A DNA stretch of 64,000 nt from a bacterium (GCA_031551405.1 JAVBNQ010000003.1:62001-126000), one strand, 5' to 3'; shown: positions 54,109-57,301, numbered from the stretch's first letter. The notes: generated by a model from the sequence alone, not told the origin. Translations and numbers: made by a program.

Positions 54109-54123
54109 AATACAAAAAATTAG

Positions 54124-54468
54124 TAGCCGAAAATTCAAGTCGGCAAAAATATTTTTCGAGCTGGAAAACTGAAAGATTTCAGGTTTTTAAAAACTATTTA
54201 ATCTTTGTCGCTTTTCCTGTTTTTCCCTTGATTTATATGTCTGACTATCTCAGAGGTTCAGCAGACTAGCGTTTTTTGTTTCTTTTTTGGGCGATATCAA
54301 AAAAGAAAAATAAAAGAACGCCGCGCTCGGAAAAAGTGAAAATCTATGCGCGTAGACAGAAAAAGCAAAAAGTTTTGTCGAAGCAAAAAAACGAAAATTG
54401 TTATTTTTCTGAATTTTCTCGATTTTTACAATGTGAATAAACTCTTAAACTTTATCGTTTTTCGGCTA
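54124..54468 (+). other. Structured non-coding element A (candidate ncRNA or repeat)
   Basis: 10-bp terminal inverted repeat 54124-54133/54459-54468; 11-bp hairpin 54279-54308 whose loop can pair with 54206-54212. Confidence 0.45.
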
Positions 54469-54507
54469 TCGACTGCTGTTTTTATTTTCACAAATCGTTT
54501 TCACGAG

Positions 54508-54705
54508 CTTTGTTCATTTTCTTTTGCTCGTCCAGAAAGAAAATGAACCAAAAGAAAACGACGCCCCTAACATTCCGGATATAGGGAAAAATTTTCCAAA
54601 AATTTAAATTTCTAAAGAGACTCGCAGCCCAAAAAGGGGCTCAAACAAGTTTAGAAATTTTAAACGATTTTTTAAAAATTTTTCCGCTTTCCTTCATGAT
54701 GGGGT
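54508..54705 (-). ncRNA. Structured non-coding element B (candidate ncRNA with 3' pseudoknot and triple helix)
   Basis: Perfect stems 54512-54524/54536-54548 (13 bp), 54585-54595/54675-54685 (11 bp), 54606-54616/54650-54660 (11 bp), apical 54626-54641, basal 54563-54567/54701-54705. Confidence 0.5.
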
Positions 54706-54912
54706 TTTGAAAAAACTACATCGTAATTTTTAGAGATTAAAAACAAAAAAACGAGAAATTTTCGCGAAGCGGCGGTTATTGCCTGTCGCGCAACGGCACT
54801 GTATACAAAGCTCAGCAAATTGAATGGTTAATGTCAGACTAAAATTATATGTGAAATTTGATATAGAAGTAAGTTGAAATTGAATGCGATTTAATAGGAT
54901 GAAATTCATAAA

Positions 54913-56088
54913 ATGGAATACAAAAAACGCGATGAATTTTTAGCTTTTGGCAAACCGATTCTAAGTCAAGATGAAATTGACGAGGTGGTTGATACCTTAA
55001 AAAGTGGTTGGCTGGGAACAGGCGCAAAAACTAAACGTTTTGAGAGAGATTTTGCAAATTATATTGGCTCAAAATATGCGATTGCAGTAAATTCGTGTAC
55101 TGCGGCTTTACACCTCGCAATGCTTGGACTTGGAATTGGCGAAGGCGATGAAGTGATTGTTCCGGCGCTAACCTTTTGCGCTACGAGTAACACTGTACTT
55201 CATGCCGGCGCGACTCCTGTTTTAGTAGACGTGGACAGAAAAACTTTCAATATCGATGTAAGGAAAATTGAAGGAAAAATAACTGAAAAAACAAAAGCTA
55301 TTATTCCAGTGCACATGGCGGGAAGATCATGCCAAATGGACGAAATAAAAGCTATTGCAAAAAAATACAATCTTTTTGTGATAGAAGATGCTGCTCATGC
55401 GATCGAGTCAGTTTATCAAAATCAAAAAATTGGGAATATTGGCGATCTTGGTTGTTTTTCGTTTTATGTCACAAAAAATATCACGACGGCAGAAGGCGGA
55501 ATGCTTACCACAAACGACGAAAATCTTGCCGAAAAATTGAGCATTTTGTCTCTTCATGGAATGGACAAAGACGCTTGGAAAAGATTTTCATCGGACGGAT
55601 ATAAACATTACGACGTGATTTATTCGGGGTATAAATATAATATGACGGATATAGCGGCTTCTCTCGGAATTCATCAGCTGAAAAAAGTAAATGAAATGCT
55701 AAAACGTCGCGAGGAAATCTGGAGTATTTACGATGAAGAATTGAAAAATTTGCCTTTGATTTTGCCACAAAAAATGAGTCAAGAAGGGATTCACGCGCGG
55801 CATTTGTACCAGATTTTAATTGACGATACAAAAACAAAAATGACTCGAGACGAAGTTTTACAAAAAATGACGGACCTAAATATTGGAACAGGAGTTCACT
55901 ACAGGGCGCTTCATTTGTACAAATTTTATCGGGAAAAATTTGGTTTTAGAGAAAATGATTTTGAAAATGCGTTTTATGTTTCAAACAGAATTTTGTCAAT
56001 TCCGCTGACTCCTTATTTGACGGACAAAGATGTTTTTGATGTGATTAATGCTTTGAAAATTATTTTTGAGGGCAAAAATGAAAAATAA
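54913..56088 (+). CDS. DegT/DnrJ/EryC1/StrS-family PLP nucleotide-sugar aminotransferase
   Basis: SGWLGTG, NSCTAALH, IIPVH, IEDAAHA, FSFYVTKNITTAEGG, GYKYNM. Confidence 0.93.
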   Translation: MEYKKRDEFLAFGKPILSQDEIDEVVDTLKSGWLGTGAKTKRFERDFANYIGSKYAIAVNSCTAALHLAMLGLGIGEGDEVIVPALTFCATSNTVLHAGATPVLVDVDRKTFNIDVRKIEGKITEKTKAIIPVHMAGRSCQMDEIKAIAKKYNLFVIEDAAHAIESVYQNQKIGNIGDLGCFSFYVTKNITTAEGGMLTTNDENLAEKLSILSLHGMDKDAWKRFSSDGYKHYDVIYSGYKYNMTDIAASLGIHQLKKVNEMLKRREEIWSIYDEELKNLPLILPQKMSQEGIHARHLYQILIDDTKTKMTRDEVLQKMTDLNIGTGVHYRALHLYKFYREKFGFRENDFENAFYVSNRILSIPLTPYLTDKDVFDVINALKIIFEGKNEK

Positions 56089-56842
56089 AAATGGGCAAAT
56101 AATTTTTATGTTTGTTTTTTCTGTTTTGGCTGTATTTGCATTTATAACCTTAATTATAAACGTTTCCAAATTGTCAGTCGCAAAAATAAAATTACAAAAA
56201 GCTGCTGATTCTATAGCCTTGACGATGGCGACATACCAGGCCAGATGTTTTAATGCAATAAGCGATAAAAATTTTATTCTCAAATTTCCGTCAGGAAAAA
56301 AAACTGAAACTTTCAAAAAAGATGACCCGGACAGTTTTTCTTTTCCAGGTATAGATCAAATCAGCATGTACGATGGTTACGAATTTATATCTGAATCAGA
56401 GTTTCAAAATTATTTGAAAATAATTACTCCACATCAAAATCAGCAAGATAAATTTGTGAGCATTTATCAACAAATGATTCCAAGATTAAAGGATGATCTC
56501 ATCGCAAAAAATGATAAAGACGCAAAAGTTTTGGAATCACAAATGTCGCAATTCAATTTTAGAAGAGAAAATGTGCGAATAAAATACCGCGACTGGATTC
56601 ACAGCTCCGGATCTCGAGCTGAAATACGAGTTAATGTTGATGCGTGGATGGTTCATCCGAACTCGTACGTTTATTCTATGGTAACCTTGAATAAAATCGT
56701 AACACTTTGGAATAAAACATTTAATTTGCAGGCTATTGCCTTAGGCGAAGTCGTGAATGTTGGCGCAGAATTGTGGCCGGATCCAAAGCCTCATTATAAA
56801 GCCAAGCTTGGACAAACTCGTGAAAAAGGAGTTTTACATTAA
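56078..56842 (+). CDS. TadG-like pseudopilin / Tad-domain protein
   Basis: MKNKNGQ plus hydrophobic helix, then KLQKAADSIAL typical of Tad N-termini; overlaps the upstream stop. Confidence 0.7.
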   Translation: MKNKNGQIIFMFVFSVLAVFAFITLIINVSKLSVAKIKLQKAADSIALTMATYQARCFNAISDKNFILKFPSGKKTETFKKDDPDSFSFPGIDQISMYDGYEFISESEFQNYLKIITPHQNQQDKFVSIYQQMIPRLKDDLIAKNDKDAKVLESQMSQFNFRRENVRIKYRDWIHSSGSRAEIRVNVDAWMVHPNSYVYSMVTLNKIVTLWNKTFNLQAIALGEVVNVGAELWPDPKPHYKAKLGQTREKGVLH

Positions 56843-57301
56843 TTGTCAAAAATATTTTTAAAAAACAAAAAAGCTCAAGCTTTAGTCGAATTTATATTTT
56901 TAGCGCCTTTACTTTTGTTTATTTTTATGGCCGGATTCAAATTTTACGATATTGCCATAAAGTCGCAAAAGCTTGAAATGGCGTCATATTATGCCGTTAG
57001 GCTTTACAGCAAATATTCTATTCGAGGCGTGAGTAAAGGAAGTATTTACAATTATTTAGATAAAAAAGAAAGGGTTATGAACGAGATTGTAAAACCGCGA
57101 GTTTATAAATATCTCGGCACCAATGAGATTCAGGTTACAATTGAAAATGGAAATGAGATAAAGCTCGTTTGGCCGGTAGAATTAAGTTTTGGAGTTCCTG
57201 GGTTAGTTTTTACAAAGAAGATTGAGCTCAAAGCAGTTGGCGCTATTGAAAACGATCCACTAGAGTATGGTGGGGGAAGAAATGCCGATGATCTTTTTTG
57301 A
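56843..57301 (+). CDS. TadE-like pseudopilin
   Basis: KNKKAQALVEFIFLAPLLL prepilin motif (cleavage before Q, Glu at +5), A..AVR. Confidence 0.8.
   Translation: MSKIFLKNKKAQALVEFIFLAPLLLFIFMAGFKFYDIAIKSQKLEMASYYAVRLYSKYSIRGVSKGSIYNYLDKKERVMNEIVKPRVYKYLGTNEIQVTIENGNEIKLVWPVELSFGVPGLVFTKKIELKAVGAIENDPLEYGGGRNADDLF

What the first reader, a model, noticed from the sequence alone, without database searches (positions are those of the whole stretch)
54508..54705. Candidate large structured RNA ending in an H-type pseudoknot with a telomerase/ENE-like U-A-U triple helix
Seen: this gene-free segment has a nested long hairpin (11-bp stems 54585-54595/54675-54685 and 54606-54616/54650-54660, an internal loop GAGACTCGC/CAAACAAG, an apical AGCCC/GGGCT stem, a basal GCCCC/GGGGT pair) and a 13-bp stem at 54512-54548. 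On the minus strand the 3' end reads UCGU-UUUCUUUU-G-GUUCAUUUUCUUU-CUGG-ACGA-GCA-AAAGAAAAUGAAC. UCGU pairs with the loop ACGA, making a pseudoknot, and the loop-1 strand UUUCUUUU matches the purine strand AAAGAAAA in parallel, base for base including C opposite G. Established: this is the geometry of major-groove U-A-U/C-G-C triplexes in the telomerase pseudoknot and ENE elements. Inference: it is an RNA or ssDNA module with a protected 3' end. From memory (unverified), similar ACTCGC..GCTCAAACA and TTTCTTT..AAAGAAA..ACCAAAAGAAA motifs recur in intergenic DNA of many phyla without a clear function. No transposase or reverse transcriptase is adjacent, so it could be a non-autonomous mobile RNA or an undescribed ncRNA class.
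Basis: partly seen in the sequence, partly recalled or inferred. Interest (0 to 1): 0.8.

Follow-up and report, generated by a model that had tools for sequence, protein, structure and literature searches.

The report
Multicopy hairpin-plus-triplex repeat element
The flagged stretch is one worn copy of a non-coding repeat, scattered through this small genome and through bacteria of many phyla, built from a long hairpin with an unchanging inner loop and a knotted hairpin that could hold a third strand; what it does and what spreads it are unknown.

Summary
The hairpins are real (fold z about -5 on both strands). This is not a single-copy RNA gene. Window 54245-54758 is a mosaic of repeat modules, and 24 places in this 1.2-Mb genome carry the same H1 + H2 unit.

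H2 (54578-54693) belongs to a cross-phylum family. The flanking 8-bp stem covaries fully: 92% of cells paired against 53% in shuffles. Sampled genomes hold 6-44 copies. The window's own copy is a diverged variant.

Its loop-to-downstream helix changes sequence but keeps pairing: 15 of 29 distinct modules against 1, 6 and 9 of 29 in controls. The A-rich tail usually mirrors the purine arm, as a triplex requires.

Isolated wobble-type mismatches favour folding of the window's minus strand (41 against 14).

There was no Rfam hit, no conserved ORF and no linked transposase. The closest described relatives are the BoxC/PIT/TM intrastrand-triplex repeats. Earlier notes of this scan report similar elements on other DNA. 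RNA versus single-stranded DNA, and the function, remain open.

The parts
54245..54314 (.). Orphan, inverted copy of the 'type C' H1 variant (module Hc); no H2 beside it here
   Evidence: 20 copies in the genome. The reverse complement aligns with H1 of the composite units.
54315..54420 (.). Repeat module M2, the commonest module of the mosaic
   Evidence: 32 nhmmer copies; alignment.
54436..54508 (.). Repeat module M3, the leader of subfamily A units
   Evidence: 10 copies.
54509..54577 (-). H1, the hairpin/pseudoknot/triplex-type module. Pyrimidine arm 54512-24, loop 54525-35, purine arm 54536-48, A-rich tail 54550-58.
   Evidence: 15 copies of this variant in the genome. Stem and loop-tail covariation. 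The same motif occurs in unrelated genomes: 22, 10 and 3 copies, with reversed-pattern controls at 0.
54578..54693 (-). H2, the long nested hairpin. Outer stem 54585-95 / 54675-85, inner stem 54606-16 / 54650-60, inner loop 54617-25 and 54640-49, apical hairpin 54626-41.
   Evidence: Model R1 scores it 111 bits and finds 24 strong copies in the genome. 16 sister copies match model R2, built only from other phyla, at E <= 1e-4. This copy itself scores only 15.3 bits against R2.
54563..54705 (-). Basal closing pair of the unit, GCCCC 54563-67 with GGGGT 54701-05, enclosing H2
   Evidence: Present in the MFE of both strands. An analogous GCCC..GGGC closure is seen in the G076 copies.
54694..54758 (.). 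Tail module T3 with a small A/T hairpin at about 54710-54732
   Evidence: 17 copies. The stem changes TAC/GTA to TGC/GCA between subfamilies.

Best explanation
The segment is one decayed copy of a multi-copy, non-coding, probably selfish (non-autonomous mobile) element that occurs in many bacterial phyla. The unit has two parts. H2 is a long hairpin whose inner loop is almost invariant while its stems drift with compensation. H1 sits beside the base of H2. It is a pyrimidine-arm/purine-arm hairpin whose loop pairs with the sequence just past an A-rich tail, and the tail mirrors the purine arm, so a third strand can lie in the helix.

Shown:
- repetition in this genome and in others;
- covariation of the stems;
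- covariation of the H1 pseudoknot helix;
- the fixed order of H1 then H2;
- no coding capacity and no linked gene.

Inferred:
- The element acts as a single strand. On the mismatch asymmetry this is the window's minus strand, where H1 reads Hoogsteen pyrimidine tract, then Watson-Crick pyrimidine tract, then a 3' purine tract.
- The invariant H2 loop is the handle for a trans-acting protein that copies or processes the element.
- The clamped triple helix stabilises the end of that strand. If the strand is RNA this would work like an ENE or telomerase-type U-A-U triplex. If it is DNA it would be an intrastrand triplex of the BoxC/PIT/TM kind.
- In this genome the copies are old (70-93% alike) and have been shuffled into mosaics in long spacers.
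For: Repeat in this genome:
- 86 matches of the spacer in the own genome.
- 24 H1+H2 units.
- R1 finds 24 strong and 3 weak H2 copies.
- Module map; several contig ends fall in these modules.

H2 family:
- 98 of 124 matches have at least 6 of 8 Watson-Crick pairs in the flanking stem, against about 0.5 expected (my binomial estimate).
- All four pair types occur at every stem position.
- 92.1% of cells paired against 53.3% shuffled (0 of 500 shuffles reach it) and 34-50% in slid controls.
- 91 distinct apical inserts among 111 matches.
- 32, 44, 6, 35, 28 and 29 copies in six genomes, with reversed-pattern controls at 0-1.
- R2, built without this phylum, finds 16 G000 copies at E <= 1e-4.

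H1:
- The motif is in 5 of 151 genomes sampled, at 22, 10, 3, 1 and 5 copies, with controls at 0.
- It is followed by H2 in those genomes.
- An H1-like module lies 50-110 nt upstream on the same strand in 17 of 104 core matches, against 1, 4 and 1 in the other three positions.
- The loop-downstream helix has at least 4 bp in 15 of 29 distinct modules, against 1, 9 and 6 of 29 in controls, with about 12 different helix sequences.
- The tail mirrors the arm in 14 rows, repeats it directly in 1, ties in 5 and is uninformative in 9 (hand count).

Strand: isolated A-C mismatches 41 against G-T 14 on the plus strand; over all positions 161 against 111.

Non-coding and unlinked:
- no shared ORF among the G000 units;
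- the largest neighbouring ORF cluster covers 7 of 119 loci;
- no Rfam family.
Against: - No partner enzyme was found. Y1_Tnp, the TnpB zinc ribbon and RVT_1 are absent from this complete assembly. Y1_Tnp is absent from the 35-copy genome G044, and where it is present it is not within 1.5 kb of a copy.
- No target-site duplication or empty site was seen, so mobility is inferred from copy number alone.
- Copies in this genome are 70-93% alike, so there has been no recent spread.
- The pseudoknot helix is missing in about half of the distinct H1 modules, among them the commonest G000 variant, type C. One control (downstream window reversed) reaches 9 of 29.
- Wobble counts within the short pseudoknot helix lean the other way: 4 plus against 2 minus, counted by eye.
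- Orientation relative to genes is weak across phyla (51 co-directional against 38) and mixed along a complete chromosome (17+ / 12-).
- The window's own H2 core is a variant that the outside model scores at only 15.3 bits, level with a spurious opposite-strand hit.
- RNA is not shown.
Confidence: 0.6

Rival explanations
1. It is purely a DNA-level palindromic repeat of the REP/MITE/BoxC kind. The hairpins and the triplex form, if at all, in DNA during replication. Arm-to-arm correction keeps the stems complementary. There is no RNA role and no function for the host, and the elements mainly cause rearrangement.
For: - High copy number with near-identical copies within a genome.
- The whole element is one long palindrome, with copy-specific but complementary outer stems.
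- Contig breaks fall at copies.
- Weak orientation relative to genes.
- On the plus strand H1 has the pyrimidine-purine-purine order that Holder et al. call a class II purine-motif DNA triplex. They showed this forms in vitro for the E. coli motif and linked it to genome instability (PMC4666352, abstract and sections 15, 16, 18 and passages read).
Against: - The 41:14 excess of mismatches that are wobble pairs on only one strand is not expected from symmetric duplex-level processes.
- The unpaired inner-loop letters are invariant across phyla while the stems drift, which points to recognition of a folded single strand.
- In G000 and G076 the linker between the two like-composition strands is a single base beside 4-5 extra stem pairs. 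That fits a groove-crossing RNA pseudoknot better than a DNA paper-clip (my reasoning, not a test).
Confidence: 0.27
2. It is a family of host-used RNA elements. The units would be co-transcribed in untranslated regions, or made as small RNAs, and would act as stabilisers, terminators or insulators, as proposed for many REP elements.
For: - In this genome H2 lies with the upstream gene co-directional in 19 of 24 cases.
- Copies are over-represented where the next gene is not co-directional: 10 of 24, against 100 of 936 gaps genome-wide.
- Contigs of an RNA library cover the spacer at 100% identity.
- Di Nocera et al. report the same placement for REPs and suggest RNA roles (PMC3733652, abstract read).
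Against: - The co-directional strand is the plus strand, which is neither the one favoured by the mismatch asymmetry nor the one able to form an RNA triplex (Holder et al. state that purine-motif triplexes do not form in RNA).
- No promoter-like site, and only one weak terminator-like site outside the unit.
- The gene-strand bias is confounded with the replication strand (r = 0.86; 22 of 28 copies lie on the G-rich strand).
- DNA carry-over in the RNA library is not excluded.
Confidence: 0.1
3. It is a single-copy, lineage-specific large structured ncRNA, or a chance fold of low-complexity A/T-rich DNA.
For: Strong fold z-scores on both strands.
Against: - 24 units in the genome.
- The same modules occur in other phyla.
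- Covariation far above shuffled and slid controls.
Confidence: 0.02

Closest known systems
BoxC / PIT (potential intrastrand triplex) / TM_ECO repeats of E. coli and other Proteobacteria and Cyanobacteria (Holder et al. 2015, PMC4666352, read: abstract, sections 15, 16, 18, passages; Hoyne et al. 2000 only as cited there)
   Same: - A multi-copy, strictly intergenic motif with the order pyrimidine tract, loop, purine tract, short loop, purine tract.
- Pairs of motifs in inverted orientation occur.
- No link to transposons, no gene-class bias, and no function found.
- H1 on the window's plus strand fits their class II definition.
   Different: - Theirs is G/C-rich, about 37 nt, and treated as a DNA structure.
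- This one is A/T-rich.
- This one has a covarying helix between the first loop and the sequence after the third strand, making it a pseudoknot.
- This one is joined to a roughly 110-260-nt hairpin with an invariant inner loop.
- No similarity to E. coli genomes was found with a gammaproteobacterial copy as query (0 matches).
REP / REPIN elements with RAYT transposases; GTAG- and CGTC-tagged REPs (PMC3733652, abstract read; PMC3116915, search listing only)
   Same: - Dispersed intergenic hairpin repeats, tens of copies per genome.
- Long hairpins with compensated arms.
- Preference for gaps after genes and between convergent genes.
   Different: - No GTAG tag and no 20-40-bp unit.
- No RAYT in two carrier genomes, and none beside copies in the others.
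- The conserved part is the apex of the hairpin and is shared across phyla.
Mosaic intergenic repeats: BIME (E. coli), NIME (Neisseria), BOX (pneumococcus).
   Same: Long spacers built from a small set of modules in varying order and orientation, as.
   Different: No sequence relation was tested. Modules of those families are species-restricted, whereas two modules here are cross-phylum.
Telomerase-RNA pseudoknot and ENE + A-rich-tract triple helices (PAN, MALAT1, transposon ENEs). Recalled, established knowledge.
   Same: On the minus strand a U-rich strand lies parallel to the purine strand of a U-A helix, with a C opposite the G, and is closed by a second helix. This is the major-groove U-A-U / C-G-C logic.
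   Different: - No RNA has been shown and no 3' end mapped.
- Only one base separates the two U-rich strands.
- It is a multi-copy genomic repeat.
- No Rfam hit to any such family.
Integron attC sites (recalled)
   Same: A folded single strand in which unpaired features are conserved while stem sequences and the apical part vary freely.
   Different: The AAC/GTT boxes are not in pairing register with the covarying stem here (read). The copies are dispersed, not in cassette arrays, and no integrase link was seen.

Membership tests
Cross-phylum H2 hairpin family (defined here) | Inner loop AAAACTCG-[hairpin]-CTCAAACAGTT enclosed by a complementary stem of about 8 bp | tested here: inconclusive
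   The window copy has a 3-nt insertion and a 1-nt insertion in the loop. It scores 15.3 bits against the outside model R2. Membership rests on homology to 16 sister copies that match R2 at E <= 1e-4.
Intrastrand triplex motif (PIT/TM; Holder et al. class II, or class IV on the other strand) | Three consecutive tracts (pyrimidine, purine, purine) of at least 8 nt with matching triads and short loops | tested here: met
   TTTTCTTT / AAAGAAAA / AAAAGAAA at 54517-24, 54536-43 and 54550-57.
Intrastrand triplex motif (PIT/TM) | A triplex actually forms (CD, NMR, footprint) | not testable with these tools
   Only sequence logic and covariation are available.
H-type pseudoknot | The second helix, between the hairpin loop and the downstream strand, is kept through changes on both sides | tested here: met
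   Helices seen include CGTC:GACG, CGCC:GGCG, CGTCC:GGACG, CTGGCC:GGCCAG, TGCTC:GAGCA, ATGTC:GACAT, TCGCC:GGCGA, CCTTGAT:ATCAAGG and others. 15 of 29 modules reach 4 bp, against 1, 9 and 6 of 29 in controls. The helix is absent in type C modules.
REP/REPIN-RAYT | RAYT (Y1_Tnp) gene in the genome, flanked by the repeats | tested here: not met
   PF01797 has 0 matches in G000 and 0 in G044. No core motif lies within the Y1 loci of the other genomes.
REP/REPIN-RAYT | GTAG or CGTC tag at one end of a 20-40-bp palindrome | tested here: not met
   The units are 110-260 nt and no terminal tag is seen in the alignments. CGTC occurs only inside the H1 loop.
MITE | Terminal inverted repeats, target-site duplication, and a related autonomous IS | tested here: inconclusive
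   Terminal inverted repeats are present, since the whole unit is a palindrome. No duplication is evident in 15 Lutispora flanks. No autonomous relative was found.
ENE / telomerase-type RNA triple helix | It exists as RNA, with the A-rich strand at or near a 3' end | not testable with these tools
   The RNA library is kept as contigs only, with no strand and no ends.
Any Rfam 15 family | Score at or above the gathering threshold | tested here: not met
   The window gave only 2 tRNAs. The best sub-threshold hit was 27.8 bits against a threshold of 90. 11 G000/G002 loci and 13 cross-phylum loci gave nothing relevant.

The most novel reading that the evidence does not exclude
The unit is made as RNA from the strand on which the core reads AACUGUUUGAG...CGAGUUUU (the window's minus strand). 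It would be a widespread, so far uncatalogued class of bacterial multi-copy RNA: a long hairpin with an invariant protein-binding loop, followed by a 3'-terminal U-A-U / C-G-C triple-helix pseudoknot that shields the end. That would make it a bacterial counterpart of the ENE triple helices of eukaryotic and viral non-coding and transposon RNAs, possibly spread through an RNA or single-strand intermediate by an enzyme not yet identified.
Probability: 0.3. Interest if true: 0.85.

Novelty: new variant of a known kind. Interest (0 to 1): 0.62.

Why it matters
Bacterial intrastrand-triplex repeats (BoxC/PIT/TM) have been known since the 1990s and have no assigned function. Here the triplex-type motif has three added features:
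- it is locked by a covarying pseudoknot helix;
- it is physically joined to a long hairpin whose inner loop is letter-for-letter the same from Elusimicrobiota to Proteobacteria, Desulfobacterota, Campylobacterota, Firmicutes, Bacteroidota and candidate phyla;
- it shows a one-strand wobble bias.

Together these give a testable model: a folded single strand recognised by a conserved factor. They also name cultured carriers in which it can be tested. On the practical side, these repeats break assemblies of small genomes and fill their few long spacers.

Tried and rejected
- Rfam at the gathering threshold and at E <= 10 gave nothing relevant.
- Coding: the 66-aa ORF of the window copy and the minus-strand ORFs of subfamily A2 are not shared among units, and two units have no ORF of 40 aa or more.
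- Partner enzymes: Y1_Tnp, the TnpB zinc ribbon and RVT_1 are absent from G000. No motif lies near the Y1 genes of other carriers. No recurrent neighbouring ORF was found. Only 10 stretches were found in 2.9 million viral contigs.
- Contig C8, which ends in these modules, is an ordinary chromosome piece carrying glyQ/glyS and a UvrD-type helicase. It is not an element.
- Insertion into pre-existing palindromes: no empty outer palindrome was found in Lutispora.
- Self-nesting at the apex: the two candidate loci turned out to be a point variant and a second subfamily.
- Empty-site test at the window locus: the DegT homologues in relatives are only 35-37% identical and so are paralogues, which made the synteny test impossible.
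- E. coli link: 0 matches with a gammaproteobacterial copy as query.
- RNA evidence: contigs of run X1 cover the spacer, but they show neither strand, nor ends, nor that the region is transcribed. X2 laid nothing.
- Replichore test on one complete chromosome: strands are mixed, and any two-arm pattern would be post hoc.
- Literature: the two core motifs as text gave 0 papers.
- RNAalifold on the 22 G000 H2 copies recovered only the inner stem, because the A/T-rich outer stems align poorly.

Full report
**1. Observation**

The stretch lies in an 804-bp spacer (54109-54912) between a radical-SAM ORF and a DegT-type aminotransferase gene, both on the plus strand. The 13-bp stem 54512-24 / 54536-48 is perfect and the 11-bp stem 54606-16 / 54650-60 is perfect. 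The outer stem 54585-95 / 54675-85 has one A-A mismatch. The 198 nt fold far better than shuffles on both strands (z -5.07 and -4.74; 0 of 200 shuffles each). Rfam gives nothing at the gathering threshold. At E <= 10 it gives only far sub-threshold microRNA and snoRNA look-alikes.

**2. It is a repeat**

The spacer finds 86 matches in its own 1.21-Mb, 14-contig, 34-35% G+C genome. Every position of the finding is covered by 14-36 blastn pieces. An nhmmer profile of ten long copies gives 56 hits. 24 places carry the same pair of modules in the same order. A covariance model of H2 (R1) finds 24 strong and 3 weak copies, plus 7 opposite-strand echoes.

Iterated module searches give these copy numbers: M2 32, H2 28, Hc 20, T3 17, H1 15, M3 10.

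The usual order is M2-(M3)-H1-H2-T3. The window adds an inverted, orphan 'type C' H1 at 54245-54314. Copies are 70-93% alike, and the genome has no long high-identity repeat that could be an insertion sequence. Several contigs end in these modules. The taxon label (uncultured Elusimicrobiota) comes from earlier notes only and I did not check it.

**3. H2 is cross-phylum**

Within the genome and in a sister genus (G002, 7 hits), the inner loop of H2 is constant while the apical stem changes sequence and stays a stem.

The listed titles name Burkholderiales, Neisseria, Gammaproteobacteria, Desulfobacterales, Desulfuromonadales, Syntrophales, Campylobacterales, Lachnospiraceae, Clostridia, Megamonas, Saprospiraceae, Crocinitomicaceae, Cyclobacterium, Ignavibacteriae, Omnitrophota and Gracilibacteria.

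These matches are not chance:
- The eight bases before the motif pair with the eight after it in 70-104 of 111 distinct matches, position by position, with all four pair types at each position.
- 98 of 124 matches have at least 6 of 8 pairs in register, where I estimate about 0.5 by binomial chance. Some of the others are shifted by one base.
- On an alignment of 40 sequences, 92.1% of cells are paired against 53.3% in shuffles (0 of 500) and 34-50% in slid controls, with a covariation score of 0.947 against 0.214. I took these 40 from 45 candidates and dropped 5 beforehand: four without stem pairing and one near-duplicate.

Copy numbers with a relaxed pattern are 32 (Lutispora saccharofermentans), 44, 6, 35, 28 and 29, with 0-1 for the reversed pattern.

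Alignments of 20 copies each from two genomes show the whole element as one long hairpin of about 175 nt or about 260 nt:
- the apex is shared across phyla;
- the middle is shared within a genome;
- the outer 12 bp differ between copies yet pair in about 85-93% of 15 copies.

A model built only from other phyla (R2) finds 16 copies in this genome at E <= 1e-4. The window's own copy has GAG inserted in the 5' loop strand and an extra A in the 3' strand. It scores only 15.3 bits with filters off, no better than a spurious opposite-strand hit. It is therefore a diverged member through its sister copies, not a direct match.

**4. H1 is cross-phylum too, and the pseudoknot covaries**

The H1 pattern (pyrimidine tract, loop, purine tract, spacer, purine tract) was sought in 151 genomes, mostly from other families. 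It occurs 22, 10 and 3 times in three unrelated genomes, once in G002 and 5 times here. The reversed pattern occurs nowhere. In those genomes H1 is followed by a long hairpin with the H2 core.

Among 104 core matches with enough flank, 17 have an H1-like module 50-110 nt upstream on the same strand (16 of them at 50-76 nt). The other three positions give 1, 4 and 1.

The loop of H1 pairs with the bases just after the A-rich tail, and this helix changes sequence between lineages:
- CGTC:GACG in the window;
- CGCC:GGCG in subfamily B;
- CGTCC:GGACG in C7 and in G112;
- CTGGCC:GGCCAG, TGCTC:GAGCA and TGTC:GACA in G076;
- ATGTC:GACAT in G135;
- TCGCC:GGCGA, CGTG:CACG, TGTGC:GCACA, TGCC:GGCA, GGCA:TGCC, CCTTGAT:ATCAAGG and GTGCC:GGCAC in other phyla.

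Of 29 distinct modules, 15 have at least 4 contiguous pairs at that place. The controls give 1 (window moved 14 nt), 9 (downstream window reversed) and 6 (loop shuffled). For at least 5 pairs the figures are 7 against 0, 2 and 0. The helix is absent from the 'type C' variant, which is the commonest in this genome.

It is lost in copies C6_42904 and C7_6446, which keep the other register.

**5. Third strand**

A triplex needs the tail to be the mirror image of the purine arm.

| Relation of tail to arm | Rows |
|---|---|
| Mirror fits better | 14 |
| Direct repeat fits better | 1 |
| Tie (includes the window's own copy) | 5 |
| Uninformative (no internal G) | 9 |

Margins are often one base and the rows are not independent.

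Within G076 the length of the A-run next to the turn changes together in arm and tail. By my eye count of the 22 rows listed, it is 5 and 5 in about 14 copies, 4 and 4 in five, and unequal in three.

**6. Which strand, and RNA or DNA**

In the 60-nt arms of 96 of 111 elements, transition mismatches that are A-C on the plus strand (G-U or G-T on the minus strand) outnumber G-T by 161 to 111. Per element the count is 46 against 27, with 23 equal. For isolated mismatches flanked by two pairs on each side the ratio is 41 to 14, spread along the arms. Shared ancestry inflates these counts, but the direction is clear: the folded strand is the one on which the core reads AACTGTTTGAG...CGAGTTTT, which is the window's minus strand.

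On that strand H1 reads pyrimidine (third strand), pyrimidine (Watson-Crick), loop, purine. This is the pyrimidine-motif order, which Holder et al. state can also form in RNA. The plus-strand order is a purine motif, which they state cannot.

Pointing the other way:
- The few wobble pairs within the short pseudoknot helix lean to the plus strand, 4 against 2 (by eye).
- In this genome the plus orientation is co-directional with the upstream gene in 19 of 24 cases and lies on the G-rich strand in 22 of 28. A minus-strand RNA would therefore be antisense to its neighbours and would need its own promoter, and the simple scan finds none.

Across phyla the orientation relative to genes is weak (51 against 38).

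An invertebrate-gut metatranscriptome holds the locus in 100%-identical contigs. Contigs give no strand and no ends, and they do not exclude DNA carry-over.

**7. What it is not**

- No ORF is shared among units.
- Apical inserts vary by 6-30 nt, not in multiples of three.
- No gene family recurs beside the copies: the largest cluster covers 7 of 119 loci.
- No Y1 transposase, TnpB or reverse transcriptase is found in this complete assembly.
- Y1 genes of other carriers have no copy nearby, and one 35-copy genome has none.
- Viral contigs hold only 10 stretches.

**8. Known relatives**

Earlier notes e1-891999 and e1-3337833 pointed me to the BoxC/PIT/TM literature. Holder et al. 2015 (PMC4666352; I read the abstract, sections 15, 16 and 18, and passages) describe abundant intrastrand triplex motifs in prokaryotes. 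They describe a G/C-rich motif of E. coli with the same three-tract order. It is always intergenic, is sometimes found in inverted pairs, is not linked to mobile elements, folds into a DNA triplex in vitro, and is associated with rearranged loci. No function was found in the earlier work they cite. H1 is an A/T-rich motif of that kind.

What I did not find in what I read of that paper is:
- the loop-to-downstream helix;
- the attached long hairpin with an invariant loop;
- the strand bias.

A gammaproteobacterial copy finds nothing in E. coli genomes. REP/REPIN elements share the life-style but not the defining tag or the RAYT (PMC3733652, abstract). Notes e1-953748, e1-891999, e1-3566162 and e1-3337833 show that this scan has met triplex-pseudoknot repeats on other DNA. 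I could not compare sequences, so identity with this family is open.

**9. Reading**

Most likely (0.6) this is a selfish, non-autonomous repeat. It would work as a folded single strand, with the invariant H2 loop as the recognition site for an unidentified factor and H1 as a clamped triple helix at one end. In this genome it is old and has been shuffled into mosaics.

| Other reading | Weight |
|---|---|
| Purely duplex/DNA-level repeat | 0.27 |
| Host-used RNA element | 0.10 |
| Unique ncRNA, or chance | 0.02 |

The boldest reading still open (0.3) is a widespread bacterial RNA with an ENE-like protected 3' end.

Noticed in passing
window 54315-54420 (module M2): This is the commonest module (32 copies). 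It has its own GC-rich hairpin whose arms change together between copies (for example CCTC..GAGG against CGCGC..GCGCG). I did not look for it outside the genome.
   Followed up: partly
window 54710-54732 (in module T3): A small A/T hairpin whose stem switches TAC/GTA to TGC/GCA between subfamilies, across 17 copies.
   Followed up: partly
G000 contigs C1, C2 (both ends), C8, C9, C10, C6, C14: The assembly breaks inside these repeat modules. Contig C8 (6.2 kb; glyQ, glyS and a UvrD-type helicase) is bounded by them on both sides.
   Followed up: partly
L233, L242 (5' arm) and L241, L245 (3' arm), Lutispora saccharofermentans: Four of 20 copies carry an extra insert of about 45 bp, similar in sequence, in one arm or the other. 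It looks like a second small element nested in the first.
   Followed up: no
G000 subfamily A2 units (C9:7.2k, C12:73k, C12:15k, C6:0.1k): Open frames of 42-84 aa on the minus strand are shared by these four copies only. They are absent from the window copy and from subfamilies B and C7.
   Followed up: partly
G000 type C units, for example C1:18892-19104: These units have a different conserved 3' tail of about 300 bp after H2. The stretch right after the H1 tail reminded me of the nexus of a Cas9 tracrRNA. That is recalled only, not tested, and no CRISPR context was seen.
   Followed up: no
window 56066-57301: TadE/TadG-like pilus-assembly ORFs and an ECF-type sigma factor lie just downstream of the DegT gene.
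   Followed up: no
L110 2947-3531: A zeta-toxin-family ORF lies between two of three closely spaced element copies in a Crocinitomicaceae MAG.
   Followed up: no
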